From positions 1-57,911 of the IMG/VR virus record IMGVR_UViG_3300027777_000041: a stretch of 57,911 nt of DNA; one strand, 5' to 3'. The notes beneath the pieces are model-generated. The model made no database searches. It was not told the DNA's origin and saw only the letters and a program-made list of their open reading frames with translations. How positions within the stretch are numbered: position 1 is the stretch's first letter; the number at the start of each line of letters is the position of its first letter. Positions 4,681 to 45,428 of the stretch are shown in pieces. The stretch is from a virus. Lineage: Duplodnaviria; Caudoviricetes. The translations under genes were made by a program, and so were the position numbers.

Positions 4681-4704
4681 AAGGGGGCTACGGCCCCCTT
4701 TTTA
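4681..4704 (+). terminator. Rho-independent terminator at convergence point
   Basis: AAGGGGGC-TACG-GCCCCCTT plus T run. Confidence 0.8.
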
Positions 4705-5581
4705 TTTTGTGTATGTCGTTCCAATCGGTTCCCGGCAAATCAGGTATTCTAATCTCTACACCCAACTTGAACTGAACAGCAAGCCTATTGGCAAGCCGAT
4801 AGGCCGCAGCCTGACCTGTATAATTTAGGTCATTGTCGCCAAATACATACACAACCTTGGCAATTTCAGGCGGAACCCACTTAGCCAACAGGTTGGCGTT
4901 TACACATGCCCAAACTGGCATATCAAACAAGATGCTGGCGCTGATCGCAGTTTCAATGCCCTCTGCTACCCCCATAATGCCAGCAGCGGGCGCAAGCCTA
5001 ATGGCACAACCCTCTGGCAAGCTGCCCGGCAAGACCTTTCGATTAGGGGTTATGTCAGCCTTTTGGCCATCTTTGGTCAGGTAGGTCACATGTAAATTCA
5101 CTGGCTTGTCGTCTGATCCAGCGATCTTGGCGATCAGTGCTATTTTGTCGCACCGCTCTCTAAGGGCTTTAGAAGGCCACTGGCAGCCAAAACGGTTCTG
5201 TAGGTAAAGAGATACCGGGGAACCCTCTTCCGGCTCTACGGCCCCGTCCCAGACTGATTGCATGAGCCTTCGCTGATCGTTTTTAGGCTTGGCTGAATGT
5301 TGCTGGTTCAAAGTATTGGATATACCCAGCTCACATGCGATGGAATCAGCCACCTGTCGGAAAGACTTGCCAGTGACTTTCATCGCCAATGTGAACCCAT
5401 CCCCAGCACCACACTGGGAACAGAAGAAAGATCCAGAACCATCCCGATCATCAAATCGAAACCGATCTGTTCCGCCGCACACAGGACAACTGACGTGCTT
5501 TCCCGTCAAAAACCTTGTGTCTATGCCAAGCGCCGGTAATAACTCCCGCCACCTACCACGCGCCGCATCAGGTATTTTCAT
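4688..5581 (-). CDS. DNA primase (P4 alpha-type Zn ribbon plus Toprim)
   Basis: CPVCGGTDRFRFDD...CSQCGAGDG; GVAEGIETA; FGDND; DWND. Confidence 0.9.
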   Translation of the reverse strand: MKIPDAARGRWRELLPALGIDTRFLTGKHVSCPVCGGTDRFRFDDRDGSGSFFCSQCGAGDGFTLAMKVTGKSFRQVADSIACELGISNTLNQQHSAKPKNDQRRLMQSVWDGAVEPEEGSPVSLYLQNRFGCQWPSKALRERCDKIALIAKIAGSDDKPVNLHVTYLTKDGQKADITPNRKVLPGSLPEGCAIRLAPAAGIMGVAEGIETAISASILFDMPVWACVNANLLAKWVPPEIAKVVYVFGDNDLNYTGQAAAYRLANRLAVQFKLGVEIRIPDLPGTDWNDIHKIKRGP

Positions 5582-5786
5582 CTTTGTCCCCTAAAGAACA
5601 ATCTGTTGTCTCTAAAGCCTCCAAAATAATCGTTCGGGCCAATATATTAGCTCCCCAATCGCCAAGGCTAAGAATCTCCTTGAGGGCGTTTTCCAGTTGT
5701 TCAATTCGAACAGTAGCAGCTTTCAATTCTGAAAGCGCATCTTGCACTACATACTCCAATTCTGAAACGTAATCGGGGTCAATCAT
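5568..5786 (-). CDS. Small coiled-coil cassette protein
   Basis: RIEQLENALKEI...ALE motif shared with the cassette family. Confidence 0.65.
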   Translation of the reverse strand: MIDPDYVSELEYVVQDALSELKAATVRIEQLENALKEILSLGDWGANILARTIILEALETTDCSLGDKDENT

Positions 5787-6123
5787 CTTTCCCCTCCAGT
5801 GCGTTGACGCCTAATTTACGGTTACGAGCTTCCTCAAAATCCGCCTCAGTCATCAGCGCATTGTTGGCGATGATGATCCGATTTAGGAGCAGCGAGTGCA
5901 TGTCAATCGCGTCTTGGGGCGTAAAATCGGGATACCGGTAAACCCCCTCGGGGTCCGCCAACGCGATTGGCCGCCCAAGTTCCCGCAGCGCCGCCTCCAG
6001 CCTTTCGATGCGGTCGGCGGCTTCGTGTCGCTCTGACCATAGCACAGTTCGCGCTTCGCGGTGGCGCTGTCGATCTCCGGGCAGCTCATCTGCGCGCAGT
6101 CGTTTCACAAGATCATCGCTCAT
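5779..6123 (-). CDS. 'MSDDLVKRLR...LEAALR...ALEGKDD' cassette family protein
   Basis: Conserved N-terminal, middle and C-terminal blocks shared with neighbours. Confidence 0.75.
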   Translation of the reverse strand: MSDDLVKRLRADELPGDRQRHREARTVLWSERHEAADRIERLEAALRELGRPIALADPEGVYRYPDFTPQDAIDMHSLLLNRIIIANNALMTEADFEEARNRKLGVNALEGKDD

Positions 6124-7550
6124 TCTTTCCCCTCCAGTGTTTTGGCAACCTCTATGCGGGCCTTTGCAATTGCAAAGTATTCGCTGTTCATTTCAATTCC
6201 GATGAAATCAAAACCTTCTAACATCGCGGCTTTTCCAGTGCTACCACTTCCCATGAACGGGTCAAGCACTGTTCCGCCCGGCTGCGTCACAAGGCGGCAA
6301 AGATAGCGCATGAGGTCGGTGGGTTTGACCGTCGGGTGGTTGTTGGCCTCGCCACGATCTTTCTTGGCTGTCTTGGCGCAGTAGAAGAAGCGGGCGGCAG
6401 AGCCGGTGTCGCCGTAGCCTGTCTCTTGTTCGCCCGTTATATTGAGCCGCCCAGACATGGAATTTGTGTCATGCGCTTTGCGGCGGGTTCCGGGGTTCCC
6501 GCTTGTTGTCTCAGGAAACAAGTCCAACACCATCTGCGATCCGTCATGGATCAGGTTGGCGGGCCAGCGGCCAAGTGGCGATGATTTAACCGTTCCACGC
6601 GGAAGGCTTACAGTATCGCCGCTTTGCTGCTTTGATGTTGTCCATGCGCCATTTCCGCCAAGGCGAGGGTCATCTATATTTGGGTCAGTTTCAACCCTAC
6701 ACCCATCCACATTGATCGCCCCCGTCCCATGCGCCAGCACGTTCTCGGCCACCGTCCCGATCAGCGGCTTGCGGGCAACAGTGATAGGCTCCAAGGCGGG
6801 CTTGAGGGCGGTGCCCCATCCATCCCATTGCTGGGCGGCTTCGGTGGCGGGGGCTGTAAGATTTTCAACGCCATAACCAAAAATAGATTTGTTATTTTTA
6901 TTAGCGTCAGCCGCAGCCATTGTAACGCCAGATGTTTTTGCTTTTTCAACATCGCCACGAATTTTCTGCCCAATAACCTCCCGCTCCGCACCCGCCGCCT
7001 TATCAATCGCCTTACTCACATCTAGCGACTTCGGGAATCCAGACCCGTAAACCCATGCGATCATGTCGCGGATTTCAAAGCCAGCATCCTCAATTCCAGA
7101 ACACATGCGATGGTGTGTTCTCGTTCCGGCAAACGCCAGCAGATGGCCGCCCGGCTTCAAGACGCGGTAGCATTCAGAGGCCCATTCAGTCACCCACGTC
7201 TGAAAAACCCGCATCCGGTCTCCCCCACTGTGCTTTGGCTTTGGGCTGTCACATGTGCAGCGAGAGCCACCTTTACCAATCAACATTTTGCATTTTTCGC
7301 AACGATTCAAATTTGAGCCGGTGAATGACGGCCAAGATGTTTCGCGCTCACCAATTCCGGGTTCGCTGAACCCGCCACTTACCTGTTTCCAAGGCGCATC
7401 CCAATCCTTCCCCATAAACTCTAGGCCATAGGGCGGGTCGGTCACGATGGCGTCCACTGAGTTGTCAGGAAGCTCCCGCAGCCGCTCAAGGCAGTCACCC
7501 AACATCAAATTAATCTCGTTCATTTGCCGCCTCACAAGATCGTCAGTCAT
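6120..7550 (-). CDS. DNA methyltransferase, N4-C/N6-A (beta class)
   Basis: GDCLE...IVTDPPYG near N-terminus; HPTVKP...VLDPFMGSGSTG near C-terminus; start 7550 or 7523. Confidence 0.9.
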   Translation of the reverse strand: MTDDLVRRQMNEINLMLGDCLERLRELPDNSVDAIVTDPPYGLEFMGKDWDAPWKQVSGGFSEPGIGERETSWPSFTGSNLNRCEKCKMLIGKGGSRCTCDSPKPKHSGGDRMRVFQTWVTEWASECYRVLKPGGHLLAFAGTRTHHRMCSGIEDAGFEIRDMIAWVYGSGFPKSLDVSKAIDKAAGAEREVIGQKIRGDVEKAKTSGVTMAAADANKNNKSIFGYGVENLTAPATEAAQQWDGWGTALKPALEPITVARKPLIGTVAENVLAHGTGAINVDGCRVETDPNIDDPRLGGNGAWTTSKQQSGDTVSLPRGTVKSSPLGRWPANLIHDGSQMVLDLFPETTSGNPGTRRKAHDTNSMSGRLNITGEQETGYGDTGSAARFFYCAKTAKKDRGEANNHPTVKPTDLMRYLCRLVTQPGGTVLDPFMGSGSTGKAAMLEGFDFIGIEMNSEYFAIAKARIEVAKTLEGKE

Positions 7551-7740
7551 TTGTCGCCTCCAGTGCTTTGCGGGCAATGAGCTTCATGGTCTTCGACACG
7601 GCGCAGCAGTCCCAATCCGTGGACAGCTCTCGCAGCGCCGCCTCCAGCTTCTGGATACGGTCAGATTGTGACTGTAACTTGCTTGCCGCAGCATCGGATT
7701 CCCAGCTTCCGTTAGCGCGTAGCATTTCAACCAGCGTCAT
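7543..7740 (-). CDS. Cassette family protein
   Basis: MTLVEMLR...DRIQKLEAALR...ARKALEATND. Confidence 0.7.
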   Translation of the reverse strand: MTLVEMLRANGSWESDAAASKLQSQSDRIQKLEAALRELSTDWDCCAVSKTMKLIARKALEATND

Positions 7741-8056
7741 CTTTCCCCTCCAGTGCTTTGCGGGCGTAATCTTCAATGCAGCACCCGCAGTCCTCATAAA
7801 ACCATTGGCCGTGTTCGCAGCGGTCATGCTTTGATGATTGCCCATCATCGCGGAACGGGATCTTGACTGTGCGGGGTATGTCTCCTTCGGCGATATTCCG
7901 CAGCGCCGCCTCCAGCTTCTCAATGCGGTTATTCAAGATGCCGTTTTCGACCAATAAATTGGCACAGCGATCTTCCAAATGCTCAATGCGGTCGGCGGCT
8001 GGCTTGGCGAGATACCAGCCACTATTACGCAAATCCTTCACAAGATCATCTGTCAT
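7727..8056 (-). CDS. Cassette family protein with Cys/His cluster
   Basis: MTDDLVKDLR...AADRIE...LEAALR...CEHG...CGCC...ARKALEGKDD. Confidence 0.75.
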   Translation of the reverse strand: MTDDLVKDLRNSGWYLAKPAADRIEHLEDRCANLLVENGILNNRIEKLEAALRNIAEGDIPRTVKIPFRDDGQSSKHDRCEHGQWFYEDCGCCIEDYARKALEGKDDAG

Positions 8057-8087
8057 TTTTCGCCTTCTTGAATGATAGTCAAATTCA

Positions 8088-8312
8088 TCACATGCCATTT
8101 TTCTTCTCCATCAGTTGTTCAAGCGCAGCTTCACGGCAACTATCGCAGCAAGCGTTGGCAGCAATCGACCGCAGCGCCGCCTCCAGCTTCTTGATGCGGT
8201 CGGCTTGTTGCCTAATCGTTCGTGTCACCATGCCTTCAGTTGGTGCAGGTTGAGTATGACTGAGTTTTTCAAGATCATCGGTCATCTGGCTTTTGGTGAT
8301 TGGCTTAGTCAT
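8088..8312 (-). CDS. Cassette family protein
   Basis: MTDDLEK...ADRIKKLEAALRSIAANACCDSC. Confidence 0.65.
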   Translation of the reverse strand: MTKPITKSQMTDDLEKLSHTQPAPTEGMVTRTIRQQADRIKKLEAALRSIAANACCDSCREAALEQLMEKKNGM

Positions 8313-8538
8313 GATCCATCCACCTTCTAAATGCTCTACCGACTATCCAGCAAGATGCAACGCCAAGAACGACCCAATGGATAATCCCTGCTTGAAACCA
8401 TTCGTACACTAAGAAGCAACCGGCAAACGCCCCGAAAAGAAGGGCAAGCCCTTGTAGCGTATCAAGAAACCAATCAGGCGGCACAGGGAACATTGACTCT
8501 TGCATACGGCAGTTGTCATCTTTCTTTTCTTCAGTCAT
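8305..8538 (-). CDS. Small membrane protein
   Basis: MTEEKKDD...; two hydrophobic segments. Confidence 0.6.
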   Translation of the reverse strand: MTEEKKDDNCRMQESMFPVPPDWFLDTLQGLALLFGAFAGCFLVYEWFQAGIIHWVVLGVASCWIVGRAFRRWMDHD

Positions 8539-8833
8539 CTTTCCCCTCCAGTGCGTTGCGGGCTGTGCGGCCACAGTTCGCGCCGCCATCGTAGTATTCG
8601 ACGCCGCAGCCATCGTCAGGTTTGCAGTCGCAAGCATAGAGACGTAGCGCCGCCTCCAGCTTCTCAACACGCTGCTCTGCGTAATCGCGATGCTTCATAG
8701 CCAAATCAGCTACGCCATTCGCATAATGGATTTGCTCTTCCAGCTTCTCAATACGGTCGGCGGATTCGGCGTGTGATTTAAGGCTTGGCGTATAAAAGGG
8801 GTCACGCAGCCGCTTCACAAGATCATCGCTCAT
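8531..8833 (-). CDS. Cassette family protein
   Basis: MSDDLVKRLR...ADRIEKLE...LEAALR...ARNALEGKDD. Confidence 0.75.
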   Translation of the reverse strand: MSDDLVKRLRDPFYTPSLKSHAESADRIEKLEEQIHYANGVADLAMKHRDYAEQRVEKLEAALRLYACDCKPDDGCGVEYYDGGANCGRTARNALEGKDD

Positions 8834-8834
8834 G

Positions 8835-9050
8835 TTAACTTTCTCCCGTTTTTTTAACACGTTCTGCGGATGTGTTTAGTTTATTGACAGGTGAGGGTCC
8901 GCAGTAGATCAAGTTTTTGTCGCATTCAGGGCAGCGCATCGCGATCATCTTCTCTGCCGCTTCAGCGATGGGCATTGGCAGTTTCAAGGCAAACCATTCA
9001 TGCTTGCATGAGCCGCAGTGGACTAGCAAAGAGTCGGGTGCGTCAGTCAT
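8835..9050 (-). CDS. Small zinc-ribbon protein
   Basis: CGSCKHEW...CPEC. Confidence 0.7.
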   Translation of the reverse strand: MTDAPDSLLVHCGSCKHEWFALKLPMPIAEAAEKMIAMRCPECDKNLIYCGPSPVNKLNTSAERVKKTGES

Positions 9051-9379
9051 GCTTTGCCCCCATTGAGGATGTTGGCTGCATGAATTTCTCTGGTTTGCCG
9101 CATTGCTTCGTGTAACGCACGAGTCGATAAATCCATATGCTCGGCATATATTTCATCTGTTATTTCCCGATGGGTGATGATGTACCCCAGTTTTATTTCT
9201 TTCCATTCGTAAACCGGATGCGCCATGCTAGTTAAGCCAATACCATCCAATTCATGCAGATGCTGCGGCATCACTTTCATCGGCATGATGTTGGCAGCTT
9301 TGACAACCGCAGGCGCTGCTATCAGGCCAAACAGGCCGGTGAGGAACTTGCGTCTTGGCATTAAGAGATCAGTCATCAC
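9047..9379 (-). CDS. Twin-arginine-signal-like protein carrying a major-capsid-like fragment
   Basis: PRRKFL + hydrophobic stretch + VKA; residues 61-106 align ungapped to capsid residues 82-127 (21/46 identical). Confidence 0.75.
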   Translation of the reverse strand: MMTDLLMPRRKFLTGLFGLIAAPAVVKAANIMPMKVMPQHLHELDGIGLTSMAHPVYEWKEIKLGYIITHREITDEIYAEHMDLSTRALHEAMRQTREIHAANILNGGKA

Positions 9380-9567
9380 TTATCCCCCTGATGATAATCC
9401 GGGTCTGGGTTGTAGACATAATACGGCCAATAGTTGCCCATGATCTCTTTGCGGGCGATGTATTCCCACCAGATCGTAATGTCTTGGTTGGTTGCCTGAT
9501 TAGTGATGGTTTTGGGATACCAAGCGAACCAGCGATGCCATTCATGTTTTCCATCAGACCAGCGCAT
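9376..9567 (-). CDS. Trp-rich hypothetical protein
   Basis: WHRWFAWYP...IWWEYI.R; coupled overlaps. Confidence 0.7.
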   Translation of the reverse strand: MRWSDGKHEWHRWFAWYPKTITNQATNQDITIWWEYIARKEIMGNYWPYYVYNPDPDYHQGDK

Positions 9568-9890
9568 TATTCACCCCCCTTCCTTGGCGGCTCAGGCAAA
9601 GGCATCCAGTGGGTAGGCAAAGGCAACGCATGATTGCTCATATTAGCTTGCGTTTCTTCCTGAAAAAACCCAACACTATAACAAAGTTGCCAGCCTCCAA
9701 ATATGGAAGGATTGTGCATCGCTATTCCAACTTCTTGTATTTTCCTTATCAGGATTGGCCCATCCTTGGGTGCGGTGTCGATTGGTTGCCACAGGACGCT
9801 ATGGCAGCTAGTGCAAACCATCCGCCCATCTTCTGTCTTCAACTTGCTATGTTGCCCGCAATAGCAGTCTGCTGTCTGTTCCAAGCTCAC
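9567..9890 (-). CDS. DUF551-like protein
   Basis: WQPIDTAPKDG...PTHWMPLPEPP; GTG start overlaps helicase stop. Confidence 0.75.
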   Translation of the reverse strand: MSLEQTADCYCGQHSKLKTEDGRMVCTSCHSVLWQPIDTAPKDGPILIRKIQEVGIAMHNPSIFGGWQLCYSVGFFQEETQANMSNHALPLPTHWMPLPEPPRKGGE

Positions 9891-11362
9891 GCTGATCTCC
9901 TGTCGTTGGATTTGGCTTTGCGAATGTTGCGGTGACGAATCCATGATTCCACTTCTGGAGTCATTTGTCTAGCGGGTTCGCCAGAAAAATGTCGCGGCGG
10001 CTTTGATTTGAATTTGTCTTGATATGCCCAATAAGCCCAACCCGGCTTATAGCCACGAAGAATTGAGTACAGGATCAATTGCGCGTACCAGCTTTGACCA
10101 TCAGCGGTTGTCTTCTGATCCGGCTTGGCAGAATGCCTACTAGCCAGTTCGTATAGCTCTCCGCTTTCTACCTGTACTTTGTCTTGTGGGGTTGGGCGGT
10201 GTCCGCAGGCGGGACAATCCAATACCTTTGGCGGCTTTAGGAAGTGGCACTTGGAACATTCCTTGGGTAGCTTCTCCTTTGGGGCACCTTCAACGCGCTT
10301 GGCCTTGCCATCATCAAGCTTGTCATGATGGATGTCAGTGACAAAGCCAAGGTTAAGCGTAGTGCTAGAGTGATCTAAAATGATGCAAGATTCTTTGCCT
10401 TCCGCAGTCCGCAGCCCGCGCCCGATCATTTGTGTGTACAAAATCTCCGATTTGGTAGGGCGGGCCAGAATGATACACCGAACGTCAGCATCAAAACCTG
10501 TGGTGAGTACGCCGACATTGCAGATTACCTTCACATCGCCCTTTGCAAACTTGTCTACGATCTCCCGCCGGGCTGGCAGATCAGTGTAAGCATCCATGTA
10601 TTCTGCTGGCACCTTGGCATCAAGGAACTGCTGTTGGATGTGTTTGGCATGTACCCGGTTAACAGCAAAACATATTGTTGGCTCATTTTTGCCACGTTCT
10701 AGCCATGTCGAAACAATGTCAGCGACCAGATGGCCCTTGTCCATTGCATGTCCCAAGCCTTTCAGGTCAAAGTCGCCAGCCACCATCCTGACGCCCTTCA
10801 AATTAGGATGCGCCGGGGCAAACACTTTGAAGGATGATAGAGCTTGCCTGTCAATCAACTCACCAGTGGTTATGCCGACAATCAGATGATCCCATTTGCC
10901 GGGAGCGCCCATGCCTCTAGCCCACGGGGTTGCTGTTAGCCCGATGAATGGCACATTCTCCCATTCAGAAAGCTGCATCCAGCGTTCGTACAAGCTGAAC
11001 CCCACATGGCACTCATCTACGATCACAAGATCCGCTTTAGGCAAATTGCGGCGCGTCAGTGTCTGCACCGAACACACCTGAACAGGTTGGCTTATGTCCG
11101 TCATTTCATGGGTGGCTTGGATCACGCCCAGATCAAAAATTCCGTTCTGCCGGAACCTTTCTACTGTCTGGTCAATTAGGCTAAGAGCAGGAACGACAAA
11201 CATTACCCGCTTGCCCTTCTGGCGGGCCATGTTGACCAACGCAGCGGCGATAACCGTCTTGCCGCTTCCTGTGGGGGCTTGAACAACCGGCCTACGGTAG
11301 CCACTAGCCAATGCTTCACGGATTTTGTCGATGATGTCCGCTTGATAGTCCCGGAGTTCCAT
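9887..11362 (-). CDS. Superfamily 2 DNA helicase with C-terminal Zn finger
   Basis: LRDYQ; APTGSGKT; DECH; GLTATP; LTTGFD; QMIGRGLR; CSKC/CPAC. Confidence 0.93.
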   Translation of the reverse strand: MELRDYQADIIDKIREALASGYRRPVVQAPTGSGKTVIAAALVNMARQKGKRVMFVVPALSLIDQTVERFRQNGIFDLGVIQATHEMTDISQPVQVCSVQTLTRRNLPKADLVIVDECHVGFSLYERWMQLSEWENVPFIGLTATPWARGMGAPGKWDHLIVGITTGELIDRQALSSFKVFAPAHPNLKGVRMVAGDFDLKGLGHAMDKGHLVADIVSTWLERGKNEPTICFAVNRVHAKHIQQQFLDAKVPAEYMDAYTDLPARREIVDKFAKGDVKVICNVGVLTTGFDADVRCIILARPTKSEILYTQMIGRGLRTAEGKESCIILDHSSTTLNLGFVTDIHHDKLDDGKAKRVEGAPKEKLPKECSKCHFLKPPKVLDCPACGHRPTPQDKVQVESGELYELASRHSAKPDQKTTADGQSWYAQLILYSILRGYKPGWAYWAYQDKFKSKPPRHFSGEPARQMTPEVESWIRHRNIRKAKSNDRRSA

Positions 11363-11468: not shown

Positions 11469-11510
11469 GGCACTCTATTGGAGTGGGGGGGCACTCCATT
11501 GGAGTGGGGG
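11469..11510. repeat. Two 21-bp iteron-like direct repeats, each near-palindromic; candidate replication origin
   Basis: GGCACTC(T/C)ATTGGAGTGGGGG x2 at the 3' end of the HTH gene, next to AT-rich 11390-11468. Confidence 0.6.
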
Positions 11511-18493: not shown

Positions 18494-20064
18494 GCCGTGT
18501 AGCTCCCTGATTGCGTAAACTTAATCACGGTGTTAGACCCGCTTGTTGTCACCACCGTGCTGTATCCGGTGATGGTAGTTGAGGCCGCCACAGTCTGGGA
18601 TGGCGTGACAGTCCAAGACGACCCGCTGCCCGCAGTGATTGTTGTTCCCGCAGTGACGCCCGTGCCAGATAAAACCATACCAATGGCAATGGTTCCAGAC
18701 GTAACAGACGCAACGGTAAGTGTGGTAGCTGCTATAGCTCCAACAAACACAGCCGTAGAGCCGGTTGTGGTGCCTGAGTAGAATGCGGTGGGGACAGACA
18801 GGATCACTACGCCGGAGCCGCCTGCGCCTCCGGCCATTGGGACATAACTACCAGAAACATAACCGCCGCCGCCACCGCCGCCGCCACCTGTGTTTGACGT
18901 TCCAGAACCTGCTGGAGTCGCCAACGCAAGGCCACCAATTCCACCTCCGCCGCTGCCTGCGGCACCCTGAACAGTGGCCCCTCCAGCGGCATAAGCGCCA
19001 CCGCCACCGCCACCAGCATATGTTACGGATGAGCCTGTTATTGAAGACGCTGCACCCGCCCCGCCCGCCGAACCATTGGGGGCTGTGGCAGACGCATTTT
19101 GTCCCGCAGCGCCTGCGCCGCCCCCTCCCGCCCCATCATAGTAAGTGTTATTGGTGGCCCCGTTGCCGCCGATATTTCCTTGACCAGACGTTGCGGTGCC
19201 GCCTGTTGATGTTTGTGATGCACCTTGCGGGGAACCGCCGCCGCCGCCTGAACCGCCACTTCCCGCAGTGGTATTGATGTTGGCGTTCGGGTATCCGGTT
19301 GATACACCCCCGCCAACGGCGGTGAGCGCATTGAAGGTTGAATTGTTGCCAGCGGTCATGCCGGTGGACACGCGAGTTGCCGTTCCACCAGTGCCGCCAG
19401 CGCCAACTGTAACTGTATAAGTGGTGCCAGCAGTTAATGTAGATGTTCCTGTAAGCAGTCCGCCGCCGCCGCCGCCGCCGCCAAGATCGCCGGATGCGCC
19501 TCCGCCCCCTGCGACAACGAGATATGATGCGCTGTATGTTCCGGGGTTTGTGGCGTTGATACCAGAATAAACAAGCCACCCTTGTGTTGCGTCAATGTAA
19601 ACAAGCGCAACGCTTTCACGGGCGGTTGTTGCCGAAAAGCCGCCGCTTCCGCCGTTGATCTTGCTACCGTTCGGCGCGATGGTGACGTTGTTTGTAGCCC
19701 AAGTCCCCGCATAGTCCGTCAACTGCACGATGTTGCCCGCAGACGGGCTGGCGGGGAGCGTGGCGGTGATCGCGGCGGATGTGGTGTTGACGGGGTAGCC
19801 GCTGCCCGACGCAGCAGTGAAAGAGGCAGTGCGGACAGACTGCCAAGTAATACCGCCGCCGCCGCCAGTCTGCGCCACCCATGAGGTGACGCCTGTGCCG
19901 TCAGTACCAAGAACGTACCCGTTCGTCCCAGCCGTCGTAGGCACAGTGAAAGTCCACGTTCCCGCATTCGCCGCGCCAGTGAGCGTGACGACACCGGAGA
20001 CGCTGCCAGCCAACGCAGTGGTGGGAGAGTTGATGCCGGTGGTGCCGGAAAGCGTGATGGACAT
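18490..20064 (-). CDS. Glycine-rich tail fibre / receptor-binding protein
   Basis: YLVVAGGGG...YAGGGGG...NTGGGGG...GGSGVVI Gly-rich domain. Confidence 0.8.
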   Translation of the reverse strand: MSITLSGTTGINSPTTALAGSVSGVVTLTGAANAGTWTFTVPTTAGTNGYVLGTDGTGVTSWVAQTGGGGGITWQSVRTASFTAASGSGYPVNTTSAAITATLPASPSAGNIVQLTDYAGTWATNNVTIAPNGSKINGGSGGFSATTARESVALVYIDATQGWLVYSGINATNPGTYSASYLVVAGGGGASGDLGGGGGGGGLLTGTSTLTAGTTYTVTVGAGGTGGTATRVSTGMTAGNNSTFNALTAVGGGVSTGYPNANINTTAGSGGSGGGGGSPQGASQTSTGGTATSGQGNIGGNGATNNTYYDGAGGGGAGAAGQNASATAPNGSAGGAGAASSITGSSVTYAGGGGGGAYAAGGATVQGAAGSGGGGIGGLALATPAGSGTSNTGGGGGGGGGYVSGSYVPMAGGAGGSGVVILSVPTAFYSGTTTGSTAVFVGAIAATTLTVASVTSGTIAIGMVLSGTGVTAGTTITAGSGSSWTVTPSQTVAASTTITGYSTVVTTSGSNTVIKFTQSGSYTA

Positions 20065-20243
20065 TAGGGGCTCGCGGGTGCAATGGTCAACTTGCCCTCA
20101 TCGACAAGCTGCATGATATTTTGGTAGTCAGTATTGTCTGGATCAAGTGGCACAGAACTTTGCACCCCGTTGATGTCTCAGCGGATGCTAACAGGGCCGT
20201 ATCCGGTAATTGGGTCATTGTAATACTGAGCATTGGTGTACAT
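20064..20243 (-). pseudogene. Fibre-associated small gene interrupted by an in-frame TGA at codon 22
   Basis: MYTNAQYYNDPITGYGPVSIR*DINGVQSSVPLDPDNTDYQNIMQLVDEGKLTIAPASP*; tightly coupled to both neighbours. Confidence 0.65.
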
Positions 20244-20245
20244 GA

Positions 20246-21316
20246 TCAAAGCTCCGAATTGAATTGAACAATTGCACCGCTAATAATGGCCCCGCGCCCA
20301 GCCGTGTAGCCACTTGCAATTGTGAAATCAACACGAGCGCCAGTGGTCGAACCCGCGAACAAACTGCCACCTGTGATGCTGTACCCTGCAAATCCGTCAG
20401 CCATTGTTCCTCCAGAAATCCAAGCGAATGTCGGGGCTGTCCGCATTGTGACGGGGAACTGATACGCCCCCGGAATGGCCGCATTGGCAACCACTCCAGA
20501 CACGGCTGCCTGCGAGGCAAGGAAATACTTCTGGCACTGCGCGAGCTGGTCGCCATAAATTTGCCGCTCATAGGGAGTAGCCACAGAGCCCGGCTCCAAC
20601 TGCACATTACCAATCGTCCATGTGCCGCTTGTCTGAGCCCCGACAGTGAACAAAATTTGCAGGCCGGTCGTGGCCGCAGACGGGATGCTGATTTGAGCAT
20701 TATAGCGCGTCACAGTTGAAGTGACGGTAAATGTGCCTGTGGCGATAGAAGTGACCGTGGGGGATGCCAACGAACCAAATGTGTCAGTCGTGTTGGCGTA
20801 ATAGGCGGTCCATGTGACGGTGGTCAGAAGGCTGTTGGCAAGATCCACAGAGAGCGTTGCGGTCGTATTAGCAAGATCCGCAGAGTTGATTGCCTCAATG
20901 CGCTGGGCAAATCCAATGGCAGTGACAGACGCCGCGCCAGTGAAACGGTAGCGATATTGGTTCGCAGTCGCGCCCGCAATCTGTTGCCCCGTCACGTTTG
21001 CGCCAGTGCAGTAAGCGTAAAAACGATCTACGGTATAAGCCAACGCGGCGGCTGCTGTGATTGTTTGAGCCGCGCCAGCGTTGCGCTGATCAGAAGCCAT
21101 GTTGCCATTGATCAGGCGATTGCGCTTGAAGCTGGAGCCCATTGCGACAGTGCCGGTGGCCGTTATGCTGCCAGCAGCAGTGACGTTGCCCGTCAGCGTG
21201 GATGTCCCCGCCACCGTCAAGTTGTTGCCCACAGCCACATTGCCGCTGGCGTCGTTGACGATGTTGTTCACCGCGCTGGAGGGGTGGAGGATGGTAACGA
21301 CTTTGGCGGTTGACAT
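20246..21316 (-). CDS. Tail fibre/spike protein with carbohydrate-binding-like domain
   Basis: RNRLINGNM..DQR...VDRF...VQLEPGSVATPYE...LAQCQKYF...FPVTMRTAPT. Confidence 0.75.
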   Translation of the reverse strand: MSTAKVVTILHPSSAVNNIVNDASGNVAVGNNLTVAGTSTLTGNVTAAGSITATGTVAMGSSFKRNRLINGNMASDQRNAGAAQTITAAAALAYTVDRFYAYCTGANVTGQQIAGATANQYRYRFTGAASVTAIGFAQRIEAINSADLANTTATLSVDLANSLLTTVTWTAYYANTTDTFGSLASPTVTSIATGTFTVTSTVTRYNAQISIPSAATTGLQILFTVGAQTSGTWTIGNVQLEPGSVATPYERQIYGDQLAQCQKYFLASQAAVSGVVANAAIPGAYQFPVTMRTAPTFAWISGGTMADGFAGYSITGGSLFAGSTTGARVDFTIASGYTAGRGAIISGAIVQFNSEL

Positions 21317-29708: not shown

Positions 29709-31990
29709 TAGTATCTACCGTCAGGTTGGAAGCGATAGCGGATGTTTCCAAGACGCCACCAAGAGCCAATGTCATTGCTTTCAATCTTAACAGAGACAAG
29801 GCGGCCCCGAAACCTTGGTGTTAAAAACGTAGTAGCTTGTGTCATTGTATATGGGCCATATACCAAAGGTGTTTGGCCAGCATAATCAGCAACGTAGAAC
29901 GTGATTAGCACGTTTGCGCCTTGCGTACCACCATAATAGCCCCACTTCATATCGGGCCAAATCTGGTCAATAAACATCTTTTCATTGGCTTCAGTAATAA
30001 CAAAATAACCAGTTTGAAAAGATGACAGCATTGCCTTCCCGTCAGCATCGGGAGAAGTTTCATGTTGATAAATATAAGTATCGTCAGCCGCTCCAATTGG
30101 CGGTCCAAGTACAGATTCATTAATCCAAGCGGTTCTGCTAAGTTTACCAAAATCCCATTGATCAAGTACATAATTGTACTTTACGTAATGGCTGTTTTCC
30201 CCGCCGTTTGACTTGGTTGGATAGTACCAAGCAACCTCACCAAAACGGGAGTTCGCAGCAAATCTAATATTATCTAGCTTGTTGGTATCTAAATCTTGGA
30301 ACACAACATCCCAGACAGGGCACCGAATGGGGGACACACCGTCCCCAGATAGCCGATAAAACTGGCTTTGTCCCATCCAGTAAACCACACCACTGACAGA
30401 TCCAGCTGCCTTGCGGCCAATCAATCCGCAGCCAGTTCCCAGTTCATTGAATTGGTAGACGTATGGTGGGCCAGCGTATTGCATAGCCCATATGCCAAGA
30501 TCAGTCCAAATAAGTCCTTGTTGGGGGCCTTGAATACATTGGACAATTCGGGAACCTTTGGGAATCCGGTAGCTTCCCGCTTGGTTGGTGATAAGAGCAA
30601 TCCATTGGTTATAGTCGTTTACATCGCACCAGCGGATGAGCATAGGGTCTACAATACCGGTAAATGTAGAGCCCCACGCAATGATTTGGCGTTGTGGCAT
30701 GGCAACGAACATGCCGTTATTGACGGGAGGGGCTTGTGGGATAATTGTTGCAATAGGATTGCCCGAATTGGGGTCCCATTCATAAATTGGCCCACCATAA
30801 GGAGACGCCAACAGAAATCCGCCCCAATTATCTAGGGTCCAATCTATTGCATTGATCGGTACGCCAGCACCATTTTGCCCACCGGCCCCAGTTCCATATG
30901 CGCCAGACCCATATCCGCCTGCACCATAACCTTTTGCTGCACTGCCGGGGCCAATCCCGTTATGGTATAGAAGACGGACGTTGCCGGAATTTTCGTAACC
31001 ACTAGTAGTTAAGGTGGCGATGGAAGGACCGGAAATTAAAAACTGGCTTGTGCTAGATACAGATATAACTGTGTAATTTCCATAAAAAGTTATGCCGCCT
31101 ATTGTAGAAGCGACAAGAACAGGGAAAGTATCTCCAGCCGCATATCCGTGGTTTGCTAGTGTTACAGTAGCAAAATCACTAGCTAGTGTTGTATTAAATT
31201 GCGACACAACCCCGCCATTAACTACAGTAGACGTTGCATTTGCTGGGTTTCCAAGTGGATCTATTGCATAAATTGTATATGTATTTGCTGATCCGCCATA
31301 GTTATAACATTGGTACTGGCCAAATAATACTATTCCACCAACGGTTACTTGCGTTAATATGTTAACAACATCGTATGGGTCTGCATACCGGCCCGTATCT
31401 GTAATAGTTACGACATTGCTCCCAGTTGTAGTAGAGAAACTAACAGCAATATTGACAGTGAGATCTTGTGGCGTCAGGTCATTAATGCCGCCGCTCACAA
31501 TTACCGACAGAGATCCGCCGCCACCAGCAATGGTTCCGCCAGAGACATATGTGGTGGTTGTGGAACTAGAGTAAGATACTGAATTTGCTGTTGTTCCTGT
31601 GACGATATAAGTTCCGTTATACGCAGATGGGTTTATCCCAGCCACAATAATTTTTTGGTTTGTGACAAAAGTAAACGGTTTCGCATATGTGAGCGTAACG
31701 GTAGTTCCGTTTCCACTTGCGCCAGTAACCACAAGCGGGGCTTGGCCATCGGCACCAACAGCCAGATATGAGTTTGCGTTGCTATCTTCCCATGCCCATA
31801 GGCAACGAACGTAAGACCCTATCGCCCCATAGAAAAATTTAGTCCAGCCACCAAGTTTTTGGACCAACCCACCAAGGGTTCTATCCGGTATGAACCGGAC
31901 AAGTTGGCTCACAGAAATTGCAGCTTCATTGAGGGTTGGAGTTTTGTTCTGGTCCACGCCCGGCAAAATTTTGAACGCGCTGTGGGGCAT
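29708..31990 (-). CDS. Tail tubular/nozzle (DNA stabilisation) protein
   Basis: WTLDNWG; DPMLIRWCD; NQAGSYR; IWPD; RFRGR...WRLG..R...PDGR beta-propeller pattern. Confidence 0.75.
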   Translation of the reverse strand: MPHSAFKILPGVDQNKTPTLNEAAISVSQLVRFIPDRTLGGLVQKLGGWTKFFYGAIGSYVRCLWAWEDSNANSYLAVGADGQAPLVVTGASGNGTTVTLTYAKPFTFVTNQKIIVAGINPSAYNGTYIVTGTTANSVSYSSSTTTTYVSGGTIAGGGGSLSVIVSGGINDLTPQDLTVNIAVSFSTTTGSNVVTITDTGRYADPYDVVNILTQVTVGGIVLFGQYQCYNYGGSANTYTIYAIDPLGNPANATSTVVNGGVVSQFNTTLASDFATVTLANHGYAAGDTFPVLVASTIGGITFYGNYTVISVSSTSQFLISGPSIATLTTSGYENSGNVRLLYHNGIGPGSAAKGYGAGGYGSGAYGTGAGGQNGAGVPINAIDWTLDNWGGFLLASPYGGPIYEWDPNSGNPIATIIPQAPPVNNGMFVAMPQRQIIAWGSTFTGIVDPMLIRWCDVNDYNQWIALITNQAGSYRIPKGSRIVQCIQGPQQGLIWTDLGIWAMQYAGPPYVYQFNELGTGCGLIGRKAAGSVSGVVYWMGQSQFYRLSGDGVSPIRCPVWDVVFQDLDTNKLDNIRFAANSRFGEVAWYYPTKSNGGENSHYVKYNYVLDQWDFGKLSRTAWINESVLGPPIGAADDTYIYQHETSPDADGKAMLSSFQTGYFVITEANEKMFIDQIWPDMKWGYYGGTQGANVLITFYVADYAGQTPLVYGPYTMTQATTFLTPRFRGRLVSVKIESNDIGSWWRLGNIRYRFQPDGRY

Positions 31991-40444: not shown

Positions 40445-41587
40445 TTAGGCTTGCGTTACGCCGAACAGACCGGCAATAGAACCGACGTTCGTCACAGGGG
40501 AGTTTTGGTAGAAGAACAGACGCTTGGTCTTGTCCGCAACCGACTGAACCGCATAAGTACCGCGAACGTCACCAGTCGTTGTGGTGGCGGGCGAAGTAGT
40601 CACCGCAGCGGTGTATCCGGTCGAAGCCGTAATGCCCGTGGCATTGTAGTTAAGAACCACATCACCAAAGAAATCAGAGCGGATCGGGAAGCCAAATGTG
40701 TCAAGCGTACCAACGGAGTAGTTGATGGCGTCAGTCGCATTCGGGACAACCGAAGCGATGTACTTGAACGCCTTCTTGCCGCTGACGGTGGTGCTGGCAG
40801 CCACAGGGCCGATCAGTTCAGACATCGGGACGCCATAAATGTCGTAGCCCGAAACCAAGAAGCTAACCGAACCAGAAGCCGAAGCCGCGCCCGTGACACT
40901 AACTGCGCGGGCACAAAGCGCCTGCGGGTTCCACATTTCAATAGTGCCAGCTTGACCCATCGGAAGACGAAGGGAGGCATTGCCATTGGTGGAGCTAGAA
41001 GTCACGCCCGTGATGGTGGTGGACGAAACAGTCGTTGAACCAACAACCGAATACGTTCCAGCGCCACCAGTGGGGCCAGTCAACTGGGCAGTGATCGTCG
41101 TGCCAGCGGTAACGCCCGTGCCGGAAATGGTCATTCCGACAATGATAGTTCCAGTCACGCTGGAAGCAGTCAGAACGCCGGAAGCCACAACGCCCGTGAA
41201 GGACGCAAGACCATCAAGCATCAGAAGACCACTAACCAGAAGACCGGTGTTGTAGTTAATCGTATATTGACTAACTGCCACACCAGTGGTGGTGGAATTG
41301 GACGAAACCAAGGTCATCGCAGTGCCAGACACCACGTTCGCAGCAGCCGCAATGGCGGAAGTGCTGAGAGCGTAGGGCTGATAGTTCAACGTCTGGATGT
41401 TGGACGAACCCAAAAATCCAGCCGTGCAAGCACCAAAATCCTGACCGGGCTGATAGGTGAAGGGAGCGCGGGGATCAAGAATCCCCGTGCCGTTGAAGAA
41501 GAGAGACGTGCCCGCCTCTGGGTTGTAGTCAGGAAACTGACCTTGCCCAAAAGAAACTACGGGGCCGGAGAATGCGCTAACAGACAT
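40445..41587 (-). CDS. Capsid-associated structural protein
   Basis: MSVSAFSGPV N-terminus directly after the capsid gene; T/S/G-rich. Confidence 0.7.
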   Translation of the reverse strand: MSVSAFSGPVVSFGQGQFPDYNPEAGTSLFFNGTGILDPRAPFTYQPGQDFGACTAGFLGSSNIQTLNYQPYALSTSAIAAAANVVSGTAMTLVSSNSTTTGVAVSQYTINYNTGLLVSGLLMLDGLASFTGVVASGVLTASSVTGTIIVGMTISGTGVTAGTTITAQLTGPTGGAGTYSVVGSTTVSSTTITGVTSSSTNGNASLRLPMGQAGTIEMWNPQALCARAVSVTGAASASGSVSFLVSGYDIYGVPMSELIGPVAASTTVSGKKAFKYIASVVPNATDAINYSVGTLDTFGFPIRSDFFGDVVLNYNATGITASTGYTAAVTTSPATTTTGDVRGTYAVQSVADKTKRLFFYQNSPVTNVGSIAGLFGVTQA

Positions 41588-41602: not shown

Positions 41603-42517
41603 TTAAGAGGTGGGGAAGGAGCCGAAGATGGAACGCCAGTTATAGTAACCGAAGCTGTAACGCTCGTAACCCTTGACAAGAAGATTGTCAGTGACAAAAT
41701 CGACTTGCATATCGGATTCAAACTTCACGCGCTCCATGTACGACAGGCCGTCGATGTTGGTCAGCAAGAACCAAGCATAGGCAGAGGTCAAGAAGTCGTT
41801 GACCATGTAGCCTTCGGGAAGGCCACCAGCCGTCATCATAATGGCATTGACGTCATTGTCCGCAGTACCCGGACGGAGTTCCGTCTTGGTGAGTCGGATA
41901 GCAACCGGCTCAAGCTGCGGGGGAACAATGAGCTTGCGGCCACGGGCGAACACCTTCAGGCCAGCCTGATCCTTGAAGTTCGTGCGGATCGCAATCATCG
42001 CGTTCAGCAGGGTAGCTTCGTTCAGATCAACCTGAGTGGAGGGCGTATTGGCAACCGTACCACCGTCAATTGGATGCGAAGCGGAGCAAAGAGCCACACC
42101 GTCACCACCGATAGAAGCGTTATAGGTCGTCGCCGTGTTCAGCAAGTTAGCGCCATAGATTTCCTTCGTTTGCTGGAAGGACTCAATGAGGCCAAGGTTC
42201 GACGGAGCAAACTGGGTCTTGTACAGGTTGTCGTCAATCGCCTTGCGGGTAATCGCATACCCAAGGGCAATTTCCGTGTGCTCCTGATTGTAGACGTAGC
42301 GTTCGCCAGCGCCGTTATCAAAGGCAGTCTGACCGCCTTCAGTCTTAAGCTGGGCCAAGCCAAGGAAACGCATCTCAGCGGTGCGCTCCAGAGCCATCTT
42401 TGACTCATGCTTGGTGAAGATCTTGTCGTACTGCGACGGGATCTGCTCATACTTACCTTCAACGCCCCGGAGACCGGGAAGGAGAAGGTCTTTGATAGCC
42501 GAAAGATTAACAGCCAT
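41603..42517 (-). CDS. Major capsid protein (HK97 fold)
   Basis: LLLPGL; H.EIALGYAITRKAIDDNLY; GGDGVALCSASHP; LIVPPQL; DFVTDN...ERYSFG. Confidence 0.9.
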   Translation of the reverse strand: MAVNLSAIKDLLLPGLRGVEGKYEQIPSQYDKIFTKHESKMALERTAEMRFLGLAQLKTEGGQTAFDNGAGERYVYNQEHTEIALGYAITRKAIDDNLYKTQFAPSNLGLIESFQQTKEIYGANLLNTATTYNASIGGDGVALCSASHPIDGGTVANTPSTQVDLNEATLLNAMIAIRTNFKDQAGLKVFARGRKLIVPPQLEPVAIRLTKTELRPGTADNDVNAIMMTAGGLPEGYMVNDFLTSAYAWFLLTNIDGLSYMERVKFESDMQVDFVTDNLLVKGYERYSFGYYNWRSIFGSFPTS

Positions 42518-44818: not shown

Positions 44819-45211
44819 TTACCACACACGGTCAGGCTGATCGACGCGGGCCTTGACATTAACATCGTCAATCATCCGGCAAAGGACGCCATTGACGGTA
44901 ATGCTCCAACCATCTGAAGGCCGGAAGACAATCCAATCACCTTCGTTGATTTCCACATCCCCAAACCACTCACCCGACTTGTCCACAAAGGCAGATGGCC
45001 CCATCTTGACCACCAAACCAACCTTGGACTGAAACCGATCTTCATCAGTTGTTTGACTGGTTAGGATAATTCCGCTTTTTGTCTTCTGAGGGCGGATATA
45101 AACCGCCACCAGCATTTGATTGTTAAATACTTCAACACTACTAAGGTCGCCAAGTTCTTTTACCAAAGCGCCTGCGGGATCAACTTCATGATCCATAGTC
45201 ATAAACGGCAT
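44819..45211 (-). CDS. groES: GroES-like co-chaperonin
   Basis: KTKSGIIL...VGLVVKMGP.AF...EGDWIVF...I.D..V. Confidence 0.85.
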   Translation of the reverse strand: MPFMTMDHEVDPAGALVKELGDLSSVEVFNNQMLVAVYIRPQKTKSGIILTSQTTDEDRFQSKVGLVVKMGPSAFVDKSGEWFGDVEINEGDWIVFRPSDGWSITVNGVLCRMIDDVNVKARVDQPDRVW

Positions 45212-45212
45212 A

Positions 45213-45428
45213 CTAACCCCCTTCTTTGCCACTTAACGTAGCGTTTACTTCTTCGCAAAGCTCCAATGCCGTGCGAAGTCCTTCTATTCTTCCTACTTGG
45301 TGCTTGTAAGAAGAAAAGTCAAACCCTTCTACTTGATGAAGACTTACTAAAGCCTCTTTAAGGCGGTCTATTTCCATTTTAATCTGTTTTGTCAGCTCAA
45401 ATTGATAGAAAGCTTGCTGTGTTAACAT
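45213..45428 (-). CDS. Small conserved head-operon protein
   Basis: YKHQVGRIEGLRTA helical motif. Confidence 0.75.
   Translation of the reverse strand: MLTQQAFYQFELTKQIKMEIDRLKEALVSLHQVEGFDFSSYKHQVGRIEGLRTALELCEEVNATLSGKEGG

What the first reader, a model, noticed from the sequence alone, without database searches (positions are those of the whole stretch)
9047..9379. Tat-like signal fused to a fragment of a major capsid protein
Seen: N-terminus PRRKFLTGLFGLIAAPAVVKA fits the twin-arginine pattern (RRxFL, h-region, VKA). Residues 61-106 (EIKLGYIITHREITDEIYAEHMDLSTRALHEAMRQTREIHAANILN) align without gaps to capsid residues 82-127 (EIALGYAITRKAIDDNLYKTQFAPSNLGLIESFQQTKEIYGANLLN), 21/46 identical by hand. 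The gene is in the replication operon, 32 kb from the capsid gene, so it is probably expressed earlier. The segment probably corresponds to the strand and spine helix of the HK97 fold (inference). Established: several defences (CapRel, Lit) are triggered by capsid proteins. Inference: a capsid-epitope decoy that sequesters a capsid-sensing immune protein at the membrane or Tat machinery, or a dominant-negative poison of a competing phage's capsid. Its divergence suggests an old duplication or another phage's capsid as source.
Basis: partly seen in the sequence, partly recalled or inferred. Interest (0 to 1): 0.82.

Follow-up and report, generated by a model that had tools for sequence, protein, structure and literature searches.

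The report
Export leader fused to capsid fragment
A freshwater phage carries a small, conserved early gene that joins a secretion-type leader to a rearranged piece of its own capsid protein; it belongs to a wider, undescribed phage family that puts this leader on varied payloads, some of them pieces of capsid, portal or tail proteins.

Summary
ORF 9047..9379(-) most likely starts at the ATG at 9376. It encodes a twin-arginine-type leader followed by two pieces homologous to the phage's own major capsid protein (41603..42517(-)), in permuted order: residues 45-56 match capsid 139-150, and residues 58-106 match capsid 79-127 (BLASTP E=1e-11; profile-profile E=3.8e-17). The gene is not a one-off: 194 homologues were found. 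Leader amino acids stay fixed while their codons vary (dN/dS about 0.13), and the payload is also under purifying selection (about 0.2). Most relatives carry the capsid N-terminal arm instead of the strand-plus-helix piece. A leader-only search found the same leader on many other payloads, including portal fragments and a tail-collar domain. Only 3 of 13 payloads tested match a structural protein of their own genome. The gene is accessory: four structurally close phages lack it. Function is untested. My best guess (0.35) is an exported or membrane-anchored mimic of a virion-protein surface that acts in the cell envelope, probably in competition between related phages. No Pfam or PHROG family matches, and my literature searches found no description of it.

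The parts
9047..9379 (-). ORF of the small protein (P0002; 110 aa from the GTG, 109 aa from the likely ATG at 9376; stop codon at 9047-9049)
   Evidence: start codon usage in relatives
9296..9376 (-). Twin-arginine-type leader (residues 2-28): RR motif at 9350-9355, uncharged stretch, V-K-A
   Evidence: Invariant residues in alignment A1. Synonymous codon variation with fixed amino acids. dN/dS 0.13. Same motif in a bacterial NMT1-type binding protein.
9275..9295 (-). Conserved extension of the leader after the predicted cleavage site (residues 29-35; x-x-[IL]-M-P-[VI]-[KR] in relatives)
   Evidence: M and P nearly invariant across 45 and 30 diverse leader proteins
9248..9274 (-). Variable linker (residues 36-44)
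   Evidence: alignments; dN/dS 0.63 for the middle part
9212..9247 (-). Segment homologous to capsid residues 139-150 (residues 45-56), placed before the main capsid-like segment, i.e. in permuted order
   Evidence: second HSP, 6 of 12 identical; 1 of 2000 shuffles reach the score; relatives 8-9 of 13 identical, 0 of 2000
9062..9208 (-). Segment homologous to capsid residues 79-127 (residues 58-106)
   Evidence: AF2 helix at residues 77-105, pLDDT about 68-80
41603..42517 (-). Major capsid protein gene (P0003, 304 aa), source type of the payload; homologous stretches at 42137-42283 (res 79-127) and 42068-42103 (res 139-150)
9376..9567 (-). Upstream 63-aa ORF whose stop overlaps the small gene's ATG (TGATG)
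8835..9050 (-). Downstream 71-aa Cys-rich ORF whose ATG overlaps the small gene's stop (ATGA)
4688..11362 (-). Context: primase (4688-5581), DNA methyltransferase (6120-7577), a run of small accessory ORFs, helicase (9887-11362). In a relative, helicase and primase are adjacent with nothing between them.

Best explanation
Shown: this is a real gene under selection for a roughly 109-aa protein with two modules.

Module 1 is a leader of about 34 residues with the hallmarks of a twin-arginine (Tat) signal peptide or signal anchor. It is the most conserved part of the protein.

Module 2 is a diverged copy (about 45% identical) of the phage's own major capsid protein segment 76-150. It is circularly permuted (139-150 first, then 79-127) and on its own is predicted to be one long helix plus disordered chain.

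The gene belongs to a modular, mosaic family of uncultured (mostly freshwater) phages in which the same leader carries interchangeable payloads. Most members carry the capsid N-terminal arm. Other payloads include portal pieces, a tail-collar domain and many unrecognised sequences.

Inferred: the leader sends the payload to the inner membrane or periplasm. There it acts as a mimic of a virion-protein surface and competes for whatever normally binds that surface.

Because export removes it from the phage's own assembly line, I think the most likely role is conflict at the cell envelope. That would be exclusion of superinfecting related phages, for example by binding proteins ejected from the incoming particle, or by masking receptors in the case of the tail-type payloads.
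For: Homology to the own capsid. Permuted second piece.

Family size and conservation:
- 194 of 199 candidates at E<=0.01.
- 18 invariant leader residues in 31 sequences.
- Up to 4 synonymous codons at invariant residues.
- dN/dS: leader 0.13; N-arm payload 0.19; window vs L001 payload 0.22.

Capsid N-arm payload in relatives:
- Capsid residues 2-37 hit the small protein of G001 (E=6.8e-4).
- Own-genome test: 34.3 bits vs shuffle maximum 23.1.
- Profile-profile E=1.1e-5.
- L167 is 54.5% identical over 33 aa.

Other virion payloads:
- L161: Phage Tail Collar, 50.9 bits against cut-off 24.
- L163: portal family PF12236, 30.7 bits against cut-off 27.
- L162: matches its own genome's portal at 31.6 bits vs shuffle maximum 24.3. 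That ORF is a portal by PDB 8ck0_A, E=2.3e-39.

Leader is signal-like:
- A distant homologue, P0124, passes TIGR01409 (18.0 vs 16.7).
- 9 of 45 and 4 of 30 leader proteins touch PF10518.
- The same motif heads a bacterial NMT1-type periplasmic binding protein.

Accessory and mosaic:
- 4 of 5 phages with 92-94% identical capsids lack it.
- Modules are reshuffled among members.
- In two freshwater runs, contigs share only the leader and diverge on both sides of it.

The phage has podovirus-type ejection proteins (phrog_4287). That membrane- or periplasm-targeted small phage proteins often block DNA entry (HK97 gp15, TP-J34 Ltp, T4 Imm) is recalled knowledge, not a call.
Against: - No experiment or expression data exist.
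- The window protein itself does not reach any TAT_signal model. The residue before the predicted cleavage site is not conserved in distant leaders, so it may be an uncleaved anchor or not exported at all.
- Nothing shows that capsid N-arm or P-domain surfaces contact ejected proteins.
- The payload keeps residues that are invariant across capsids. That fits binding to capsid or scaffold proteins in the cytoplasm at least as well.
- Only 3 of 13 payloads tested match a structural protein of their own genome, so 'virion mimic' is not a rule for the whole leader family.
- The host is unknown, so the presence of a Tat system is unknown.
Confidence: 0.35

Rival explanations
1. Immune decoy. The capsid-like payload binds a host protein that senses capsid protein. 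It blocks that sensor, tethers it to the membrane, or carries it out through Tat as a hitchhiker.
For: The recognised payload sources (capsid, portal, tail fibre) are the same classes reported as triggers of defence systems, according to passages read in review PMC13728456. The gene is accessory, fast-changing and sits in an early block next to an orphan DNA methyltransferase. Different capsid pieces in close relatives could track different sensors.
Against: Known capsid sensors are cytoplasmic and are switched on by binding (recalled), so a mimic could trigger them. The strongest constraint is on an export-type leader, which a cytoplasmic decoy would not need. The payload keeps residues invariant across capsids rather than obviously surface ones. 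No decoy of this kind turned up in my searches.
Confidence: 0.2
2. Assembly interference or control in the cytoplasm or at the membrane. The fragment binds capsid subunits or the scaffolding protein through the interface it copies. It would act as a dominant-negative poison of co-infecting relatives or satellites, or as a membrane tether or timer for the phage's own head assembly.
For: The payloads are the capsid N-arm and the 76-150 segment, and they retain capsid-invariant residues. Alone, the payload is predicted to be mostly unfolded apart from one helix, as expected for a piece that needs a partner. Portal pieces also occur. That the N-arm and spine helix form the scaffold-binding face in HK97-fold capsids is recalled, not tested here.
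Against: Capsids of relatives are 87-99% identical to the phage's own, so a poison would hit self. Four relatives with near-identical capsids do without it, so it is not needed for assembly. The export-type leader is unexplained unless it is only an anchor.
Confidence: 0.2
3. The leader is the active part (for example it loads or jams the export machinery, or perturbs the membrane). The payload is a tolerated filler picked up from the phage's own DNA by recombination.
For: The leader is by far the most conserved module and heads very diverse payloads. 10 of 13 payloads have no detectable source in their own genome. Mosaic exchange at the leader boundary is visible.
Against: Payloads are under purifying selection (dN/dS 0.19-0.22). 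The same capsid pieces recur behind divergent leaders (P0124; the L248 type at E=0.0021 with low probability). All recognised payloads are in-frame pieces of proteins, not random DNA.
Confidence: 0.1
4. A decaying remnant of a capsid gene duplication, or a chance similarity, with no function.
For: Short ORF with no Pfam or PHROG family; absent from some relatives.
Against: E=3.8e-17 profile match; 194 homologues; purifying selection; start and stop codons overlap the neighbours' on both sides; an identical copy occurs in another freshwater run (record 1).
Confidence: 0.02

Closest known systems
Twin-arginine (Tat) signal peptides of bacterial periplasmic proteins (TIGR01409 / PF10518)
   Same: RR-x-F-L motif, short uncharged stretch rich in Gly/Ala/Pro, a basic residue near an A-x-A-like site. 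A bacterial NMT1-type binding protein found in the same scan carries almost the same motif.
   Different: Encoded by a phage; followed by a conserved [IL]-M-P-V-[KR] extension; the window copy does not reach either model's threshold; the cargo is a protein fragment of about 75 aa, not a folded enzyme.
Major capsid proteins of HTVC023P-type podophages (phrog_371; Mu gpT-like)
   Same: Payload residues 45-106 are homologous to capsid residues 79-150. tblastn of the small protein against 50,697 phage records hits only capsid genes (8 of 8 records).
   Different: Covers only about 60 of 304 residues, in permuted order, at about 45% identity; it cannot form a capsid fold by itself.
Superinfection-exclusion proteins that act at the membrane (HK97 gp15, TP-J34 Ltp, T4 Imm/Sp; recalled, not searched)
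   Same: Small, envelope-targeted, accessory, variable among relatives.
   Different: No sequence similarity known. Those proteins are not copies of virion proteins. No exclusion phenotype has been tested here.
Gol peptide of T4 gp23 / capsid triggers of CapRel, Thoeris, CBASS (for the latter; Gol recalled)
   Same: A short stretch of a major capsid protein that is biologically active on its own.
   Different: Those are parts of the capsid gene itself and act as triggers. Here a separate, exported copy is encoded by the phage.

Membership tests
Tat signal peptide | Twin-arginine consensus (S/T)-R-R-x-F-L-K | tested here: met
   P-R-R-K-F-L-T in the window protein. R-R and F are invariant in 31 relatives, and R-R in 45 and 30 diverse leaders.
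Tat signal peptide | Moderately hydrophobic stretch, then a basic residue and a small-x-small cleavage site | tested here: inconclusive
   G-L-F-G-L-I-A-A-P-A-V-V then K-A is present. In distant leaders the site varies (for example ...V-R-V...V-T-F), so the leader may be an uncleaved anchor. No SignalP or TatP was available.
Tat signal peptide | Score above the curated cut-off of TIGR01409 or PF10518 | tested here: not met
   The window protein has no hit. Distant homologue P0124 passes TIGR01409 (18.0 vs 16.7). 9 of 45 and 4 of 30 leader proteins hit PF10518 at E<=1 or E<=0.1. Every individually listed score was below the 22.7 cut-off (best 20.3); scores of the members not listed individually were not seen.
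Tat signal peptide | Export depends on TatABC and on the RR pair | not testable with these tools
   Needs reporter fusions in tat+ and tatC- cells; the host is unknown.
HK97-fold major capsid protein | Sequence homology to a capsid family | tested here: met
HK97-fold major capsid protein | Complete fold (N-arm, E-loop, P-domain, A-domain) of about 300 residues | tested here: not met
   Only capsid residues 79-127 and 139-150 are represented. AF2 gives a helix plus disorder, pLDDT 55.7.
Superinfection-exclusion proteins | Blocks entry of a second phage when expressed | not testable with these tools
   Uncultured phage. The PADLOC library was never searched. PHROGs gave no family for this protein.
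Anti-defence decoy of a capsid sensor | Binds and neutralises a host capsid-sensing protein | not tested
   No host or sensor is known. Literature searches found no precedent.

The most novel reading that the evidence does not exclude
Uncultured phages own a portable export leader that repeatedly captures fragments of their own virion proteins (capsid N-arm, capsid P-domain, portal, tail-fibre modules). This produces a shuffled repertoire of exported 'self-mimics'. The mimics either trap the ejected proteins or mask the receptors of incoming related phages. Alternatively, they bind cytoplasmic capsid- or portal-sensing immune proteins and drag them to, or through, the Tat translocon as hitchhikers. 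Either way it would be a new principle of phage conflict: structural self-mimicry coupled to export.
Probability: 0.3. Interest if true: 0.9.

Novelty: categorically new. Interest (0 to 1): 0.78.

Why it matters
Phage structural proteins are emerging as the main cues that bacterial immunity reads, and as the interfaces that satellites and competing phages attack. This is a conserved, selected gene that exports or membrane-tethers a rearranged piece of the capsid. Its sister genes do the same with other capsid, portal and tail pieces. No such class of phage accessory protein turned up in my literature searches. It gives a concrete, testable entry point: a short leader, defined payloads and natural swap variants. 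It bears on three questions: how phages use mimicry of their own parts, whether Tat export is exploited by phages, and how tiny mosaic genes evolve by permutation and module exchange. The phage group is very abundant in fresh water: 7621 of 8000 scored capsid candidates matched at E<=1e-5.

Tried and rejected
- Search for a close capsid donor. The search for homologous proteins with 'longer' lengths on residues 41-110 found nothing. A full HMMER scan of 1.84 billion representatives gave only 6 hits at E<=0.001. The best capsid was P0127, 51% identical over 45 aa, against 45% for the phage's own capsid. Two hits (P0125, P0126) are repeat proteins that I regard as spurious. No clear donor lineage emerged.
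- Complex prediction of capsid plus payload residues 36-110: verdict 'no answer'. This is not evidence either way.
- AF2 of the capsid from a 4-row alignment failed (pLDDT 31.7). PDB sequence searches with the capsid and with its profile found nothing usable. The HK97 mapping therefore stays unverified.
- ESM Atlas: no usable hit.
- The search of earlier findings: nothing.
- Near-identical DNA in the phage collection: none.
- Two other leader proteins (L166 and L147 types) against the phage collection: no match.
- Bacterial genome scan: only one locus, on a 61-kb contig of a MAG that is probably the phage itself. It gives no host clue.
- Promoter and terminator scan: not above shuffles (12 found vs 10.3 expected, and 11 vs 11.2).
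- Sequencing runs: no RNA holder listed, so nothing can be said on expression.
- My guess that the L243/L249/L271 payloads are N-termini of another capsid family was not supported by Pfam. My first guess that the L248 type carries an N-arm was replaced by a weak match to capsid 88-151 (E=0.0021, probability 13%).
- Own-genome tests were negative for 10 of 13 leader genes. Five of those genomes are only 37-64% complete.
- Supplements of PMC9599517 were not opened; they may list orthogroups that include this gene.
- Regex classification of the 120 listed homologues (one search used a faulty pattern and is discarded): 84 N-arm type, 21 spine-helix type, 15 unassigned. By eye, most of the 15 are N-arm variants.

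Full report
**What is there.** The window is a complete 57,911-bp virus record. Nearly all genes lie on the minus strand. The structural block has terminase, portal, a GroES-like co-chaperonin, the major capsid protein, tail and ejection proteins and an endolysin. The replication block has helicase (9887-11362), a DNA methyltransferase (6120-7577) and primase (4688-5581).

The capsid is 91.7% identical to that of an uncultured spring-water phage. It is about 40-42% identical to the capsids of Pelagibacter phage HTVC023P and Roseobacter phage CRP-901. A GroES gene is reported as core to HTVC023P-type phages (passages read in PMC9599517). The phage is therefore a freshwater relative of that podovirus group. 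Its host is unknown.

**The gene.** ORF 9047..9379(-) lies in a tightly packed run of small ORFs between helicase and primase. The upstream ORF's stop overlaps an ATG at 9376 (TGATG), which follows a GGGGGA run. The downstream ORF's ATG overlaps this gene's stop (ATGA). In 22 of 26 relatives the corresponding first codon is ATG, so I take 9376 as the start.

- BLASTP gives 22 of 49 identical, E=1e-11.
- Within the phage genome the capsid gene is the only other match.
- Shuffled payloads reach at most 24.3 bits against 43.9 observed.
- The profile-profile comparison gives 98.9% probability and E=3.8e-17.
- Against 50,697 phage records the small protein hits only capsid genes (8 of 8 records).
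- DNA identity of the two segments is 71 of 138, so the copy is old or fast-evolving.
- A second, shorter piece (residues 45-56) matches capsid 139-150; at most 1 of 2000 shuffles reach the score, and in relatives 8-9 of 13 residues are identical with 0 of 2000 shuffles.

Because that piece precedes the 79-127 copy, the payload is a circular permutation of capsid segment 76-150 with the connecting loop dropped.

**It is a family under selection.** A word-indexed search found 194 proteins of 60-193 aa (of 199 candidates). All 120 listed carry the leader. By a regular-expression sort, 21 carry the helix-type payload of this window and 84 carry a different payload; 15 are unassigned.

That second payload is homologous to the capsid N-terminal arm:
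- Capsid residues 2-37 hit the small protein of a complete relative (E=6.8e-4).
- The own-genome test gives 34.3 bits against a shuffle maximum of 23.1.
- The profile-profile comparison gives E=1.1e-5, 82% probability.

Eighteen leader residues are invariant in 31 sequences, while their codons vary freely, for example three Pro codons, three Arg codons, and four Ala and Val codons. Pooled Nei-Gojobori estimates give dN/dS of 0.13 for the leader, 0.19 for the N-arm payload (dS near saturation) and 0.22 for the window payload against its closest DNA relative. The protein is therefore translated and both modules are constrained. The family is also mosaic: leader, middle motif and tail recombine independently. 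In two freshwater runs, contigs match only the leader stretch and diverge on both sides of it.

**A portable leader.** Searching with the leader alone returned 57 viral and 101 metagenomic loci, of which 80 were kept. Their payloads are 50-210 aa and very diverse. Recognised payloads:
- A tail-collar domain, 50.9 bits against cut-off 24.
- A portal N-terminal region, 30.7 bits against cut-off 27. That ORF runs off its contig, so it could be a whole portal.
- A portal internal piece that matches the portal of its own genome (31.6 bits against shuffle maximum 24.3). That ORF is confirmed as a portal against PDB 8ck0_A.
- A weak CBM_5_12 hit (E=0.0028).
- More capsid pieces behind divergent leaders: P0124 and L167, plus a weak case, the L248 type.

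Results against the generalisation must also be told. Of 13 leader genes in 12 fetched genomes, only 3 match a structural protein of their own genome. Several common payload types have no recognisable source, although five of those genomes are incomplete.

One scan hit is an ordinary bacterial NMT1-type binding protein with nearly the same leader motif. That supports reading the leader as a genuine export signal.

**Is it Tat?** The motif fits by eye. A distant homologue passes TIGR01409. PF10518 touches 9 of 45 and 4 of 30 leaders, and every individually listed score was below the cut-off. The window protein hits neither model. The most conserved feature after the hydrophobic stretch is [IL]-M-P-V-[KR], not the cleavage site, so an uncleaved signal anchor is as likely as a cleaved signal. 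Either way the positive-inside rule puts the payload outside the cytoplasm; this is inference.

**Accessory status.** Capsids of family-bearing phages are 87% identical to the window's. Yet four complete or near-complete phages with 92-94% identical capsids have no family member, and a fifth has the leader on an unrelated 150-aa payload. Their replication modules differ strongly (helicase 66%, 56%, 39% identical, or absent). In one of them helicase and primase are adjacent with no small genes between. The gene therefore belongs to a variable accessory island.

**Structure.** AF2 of the small protein is low-confidence (pLDDT 55.7). It shows a leader helix (9-30), a long helix at 77-105 (pLDDT about 68-80) and disorder between them. 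This fits a piece that needs a partner. The capsid model failed, so the 'strand plus spine helix' assignment remains a reasonable inference, not a result.

**Mechanism.** What is shown: an export-type leader plus a self-capsid mimic, both under selection, in an accessory, mosaic family.

What is inferred: I rank an envelope-located mimic acting in phage-phage exclusion first (0.35). The reasons are that the leader is the dominant constraint, that export would spare the phage's own assembly, and that tail-type payloads make sense at the cell surface. Cytoplasmic immune decoy (0.2) and assembly interference or scaffold titration (0.2) are serious rivals. The latter is favoured by the retention of capsid-invariant residues. 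A 'leader-only' function with filler payload (0.1) is weakened by payload constraint. A remnant or chance match (0.02) is contradicted.

**Novelty.** No Pfam or PHROG family covers the protein. My literature searches found no description of exported or leader-fused capsid fragments in phages. The searches were: twin-arginine + major capsid protein + phage + signal peptide; decoy + major capsid protein + anti-defense + phage; twin-arginine + bacteriophage + superinfection exclusion; superinfection exclusion + capsid + fragment + signal peptide + periplasm; and HTVC023P. For these I saw listings and abstracts, plus passages of PMC13728456 and PMC9599517. Subscription literature is not covered.

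Noticed in passing
window 5779-8860 (-): A tandem family of 5-6 small paralogous genes. Each begins with M-[TS]-D-D-L... and contains a coiled-coil-like ...R-I-x-K-L-E-A-A-L-R motif. Each is preceded by the same ~25-36-nt junction element carrying the ribosome-binding site (repeat families D1-D6). The methyltransferase ORF also starts with this element.
   Followed up: partly
window 44819-45232 (-): GroES-like co-chaperonin gene (phrog_3188, 1.2e-12) inside the head module, as reported for the core genome of HTVC023P-type pelagiphages.
   Followed up: partly
window 40445-41587 (-): A 380-aa Ser/Thr/Gly/Ala-rich protein (P0001) directly downstream of the capsid gene, with no clear family. It may be a decoration or fibre-like head protein.
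   Followed up: no
window 11469-11510: Two tandem copies of a 21-nt unit (95% identical) just upstream of the helicase gene.
   Followed up: no
G001 (record of L024) 19949-20455 (-) and 31377-31709 (+): One complete relative carries two leader genes. One has a capsid N-arm payload; the other has an unrelated 130-aa payload.
   Followed up: partly
window 8835-9050 (-) and proteins P0042, P0045, P0098: Some relatives' small proteins end with the C-terminal tail (...N-T-S-x-E-R-V...) of the downstream Cys-rich ORF. This suggests deletions that fuse the two genes.
   Followed up: no
L275 (metagenome contig, 347-aa ORF): A bacterial NMT1/THI5-type substrate-binding protein carries almost the same leader motif as the phage family. 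This hints that the phage leader was taken from, or converged on, host periplasmic protein signals.
   Followed up: partly
L163 (2.1-kb viral contig): The leader is joined directly to the N-terminal region of a T7-type portal (PF12236, 30.7 bits). The ORF runs off the contig, so a full-length portal with this leader cannot be excluded.
   Followed up: no
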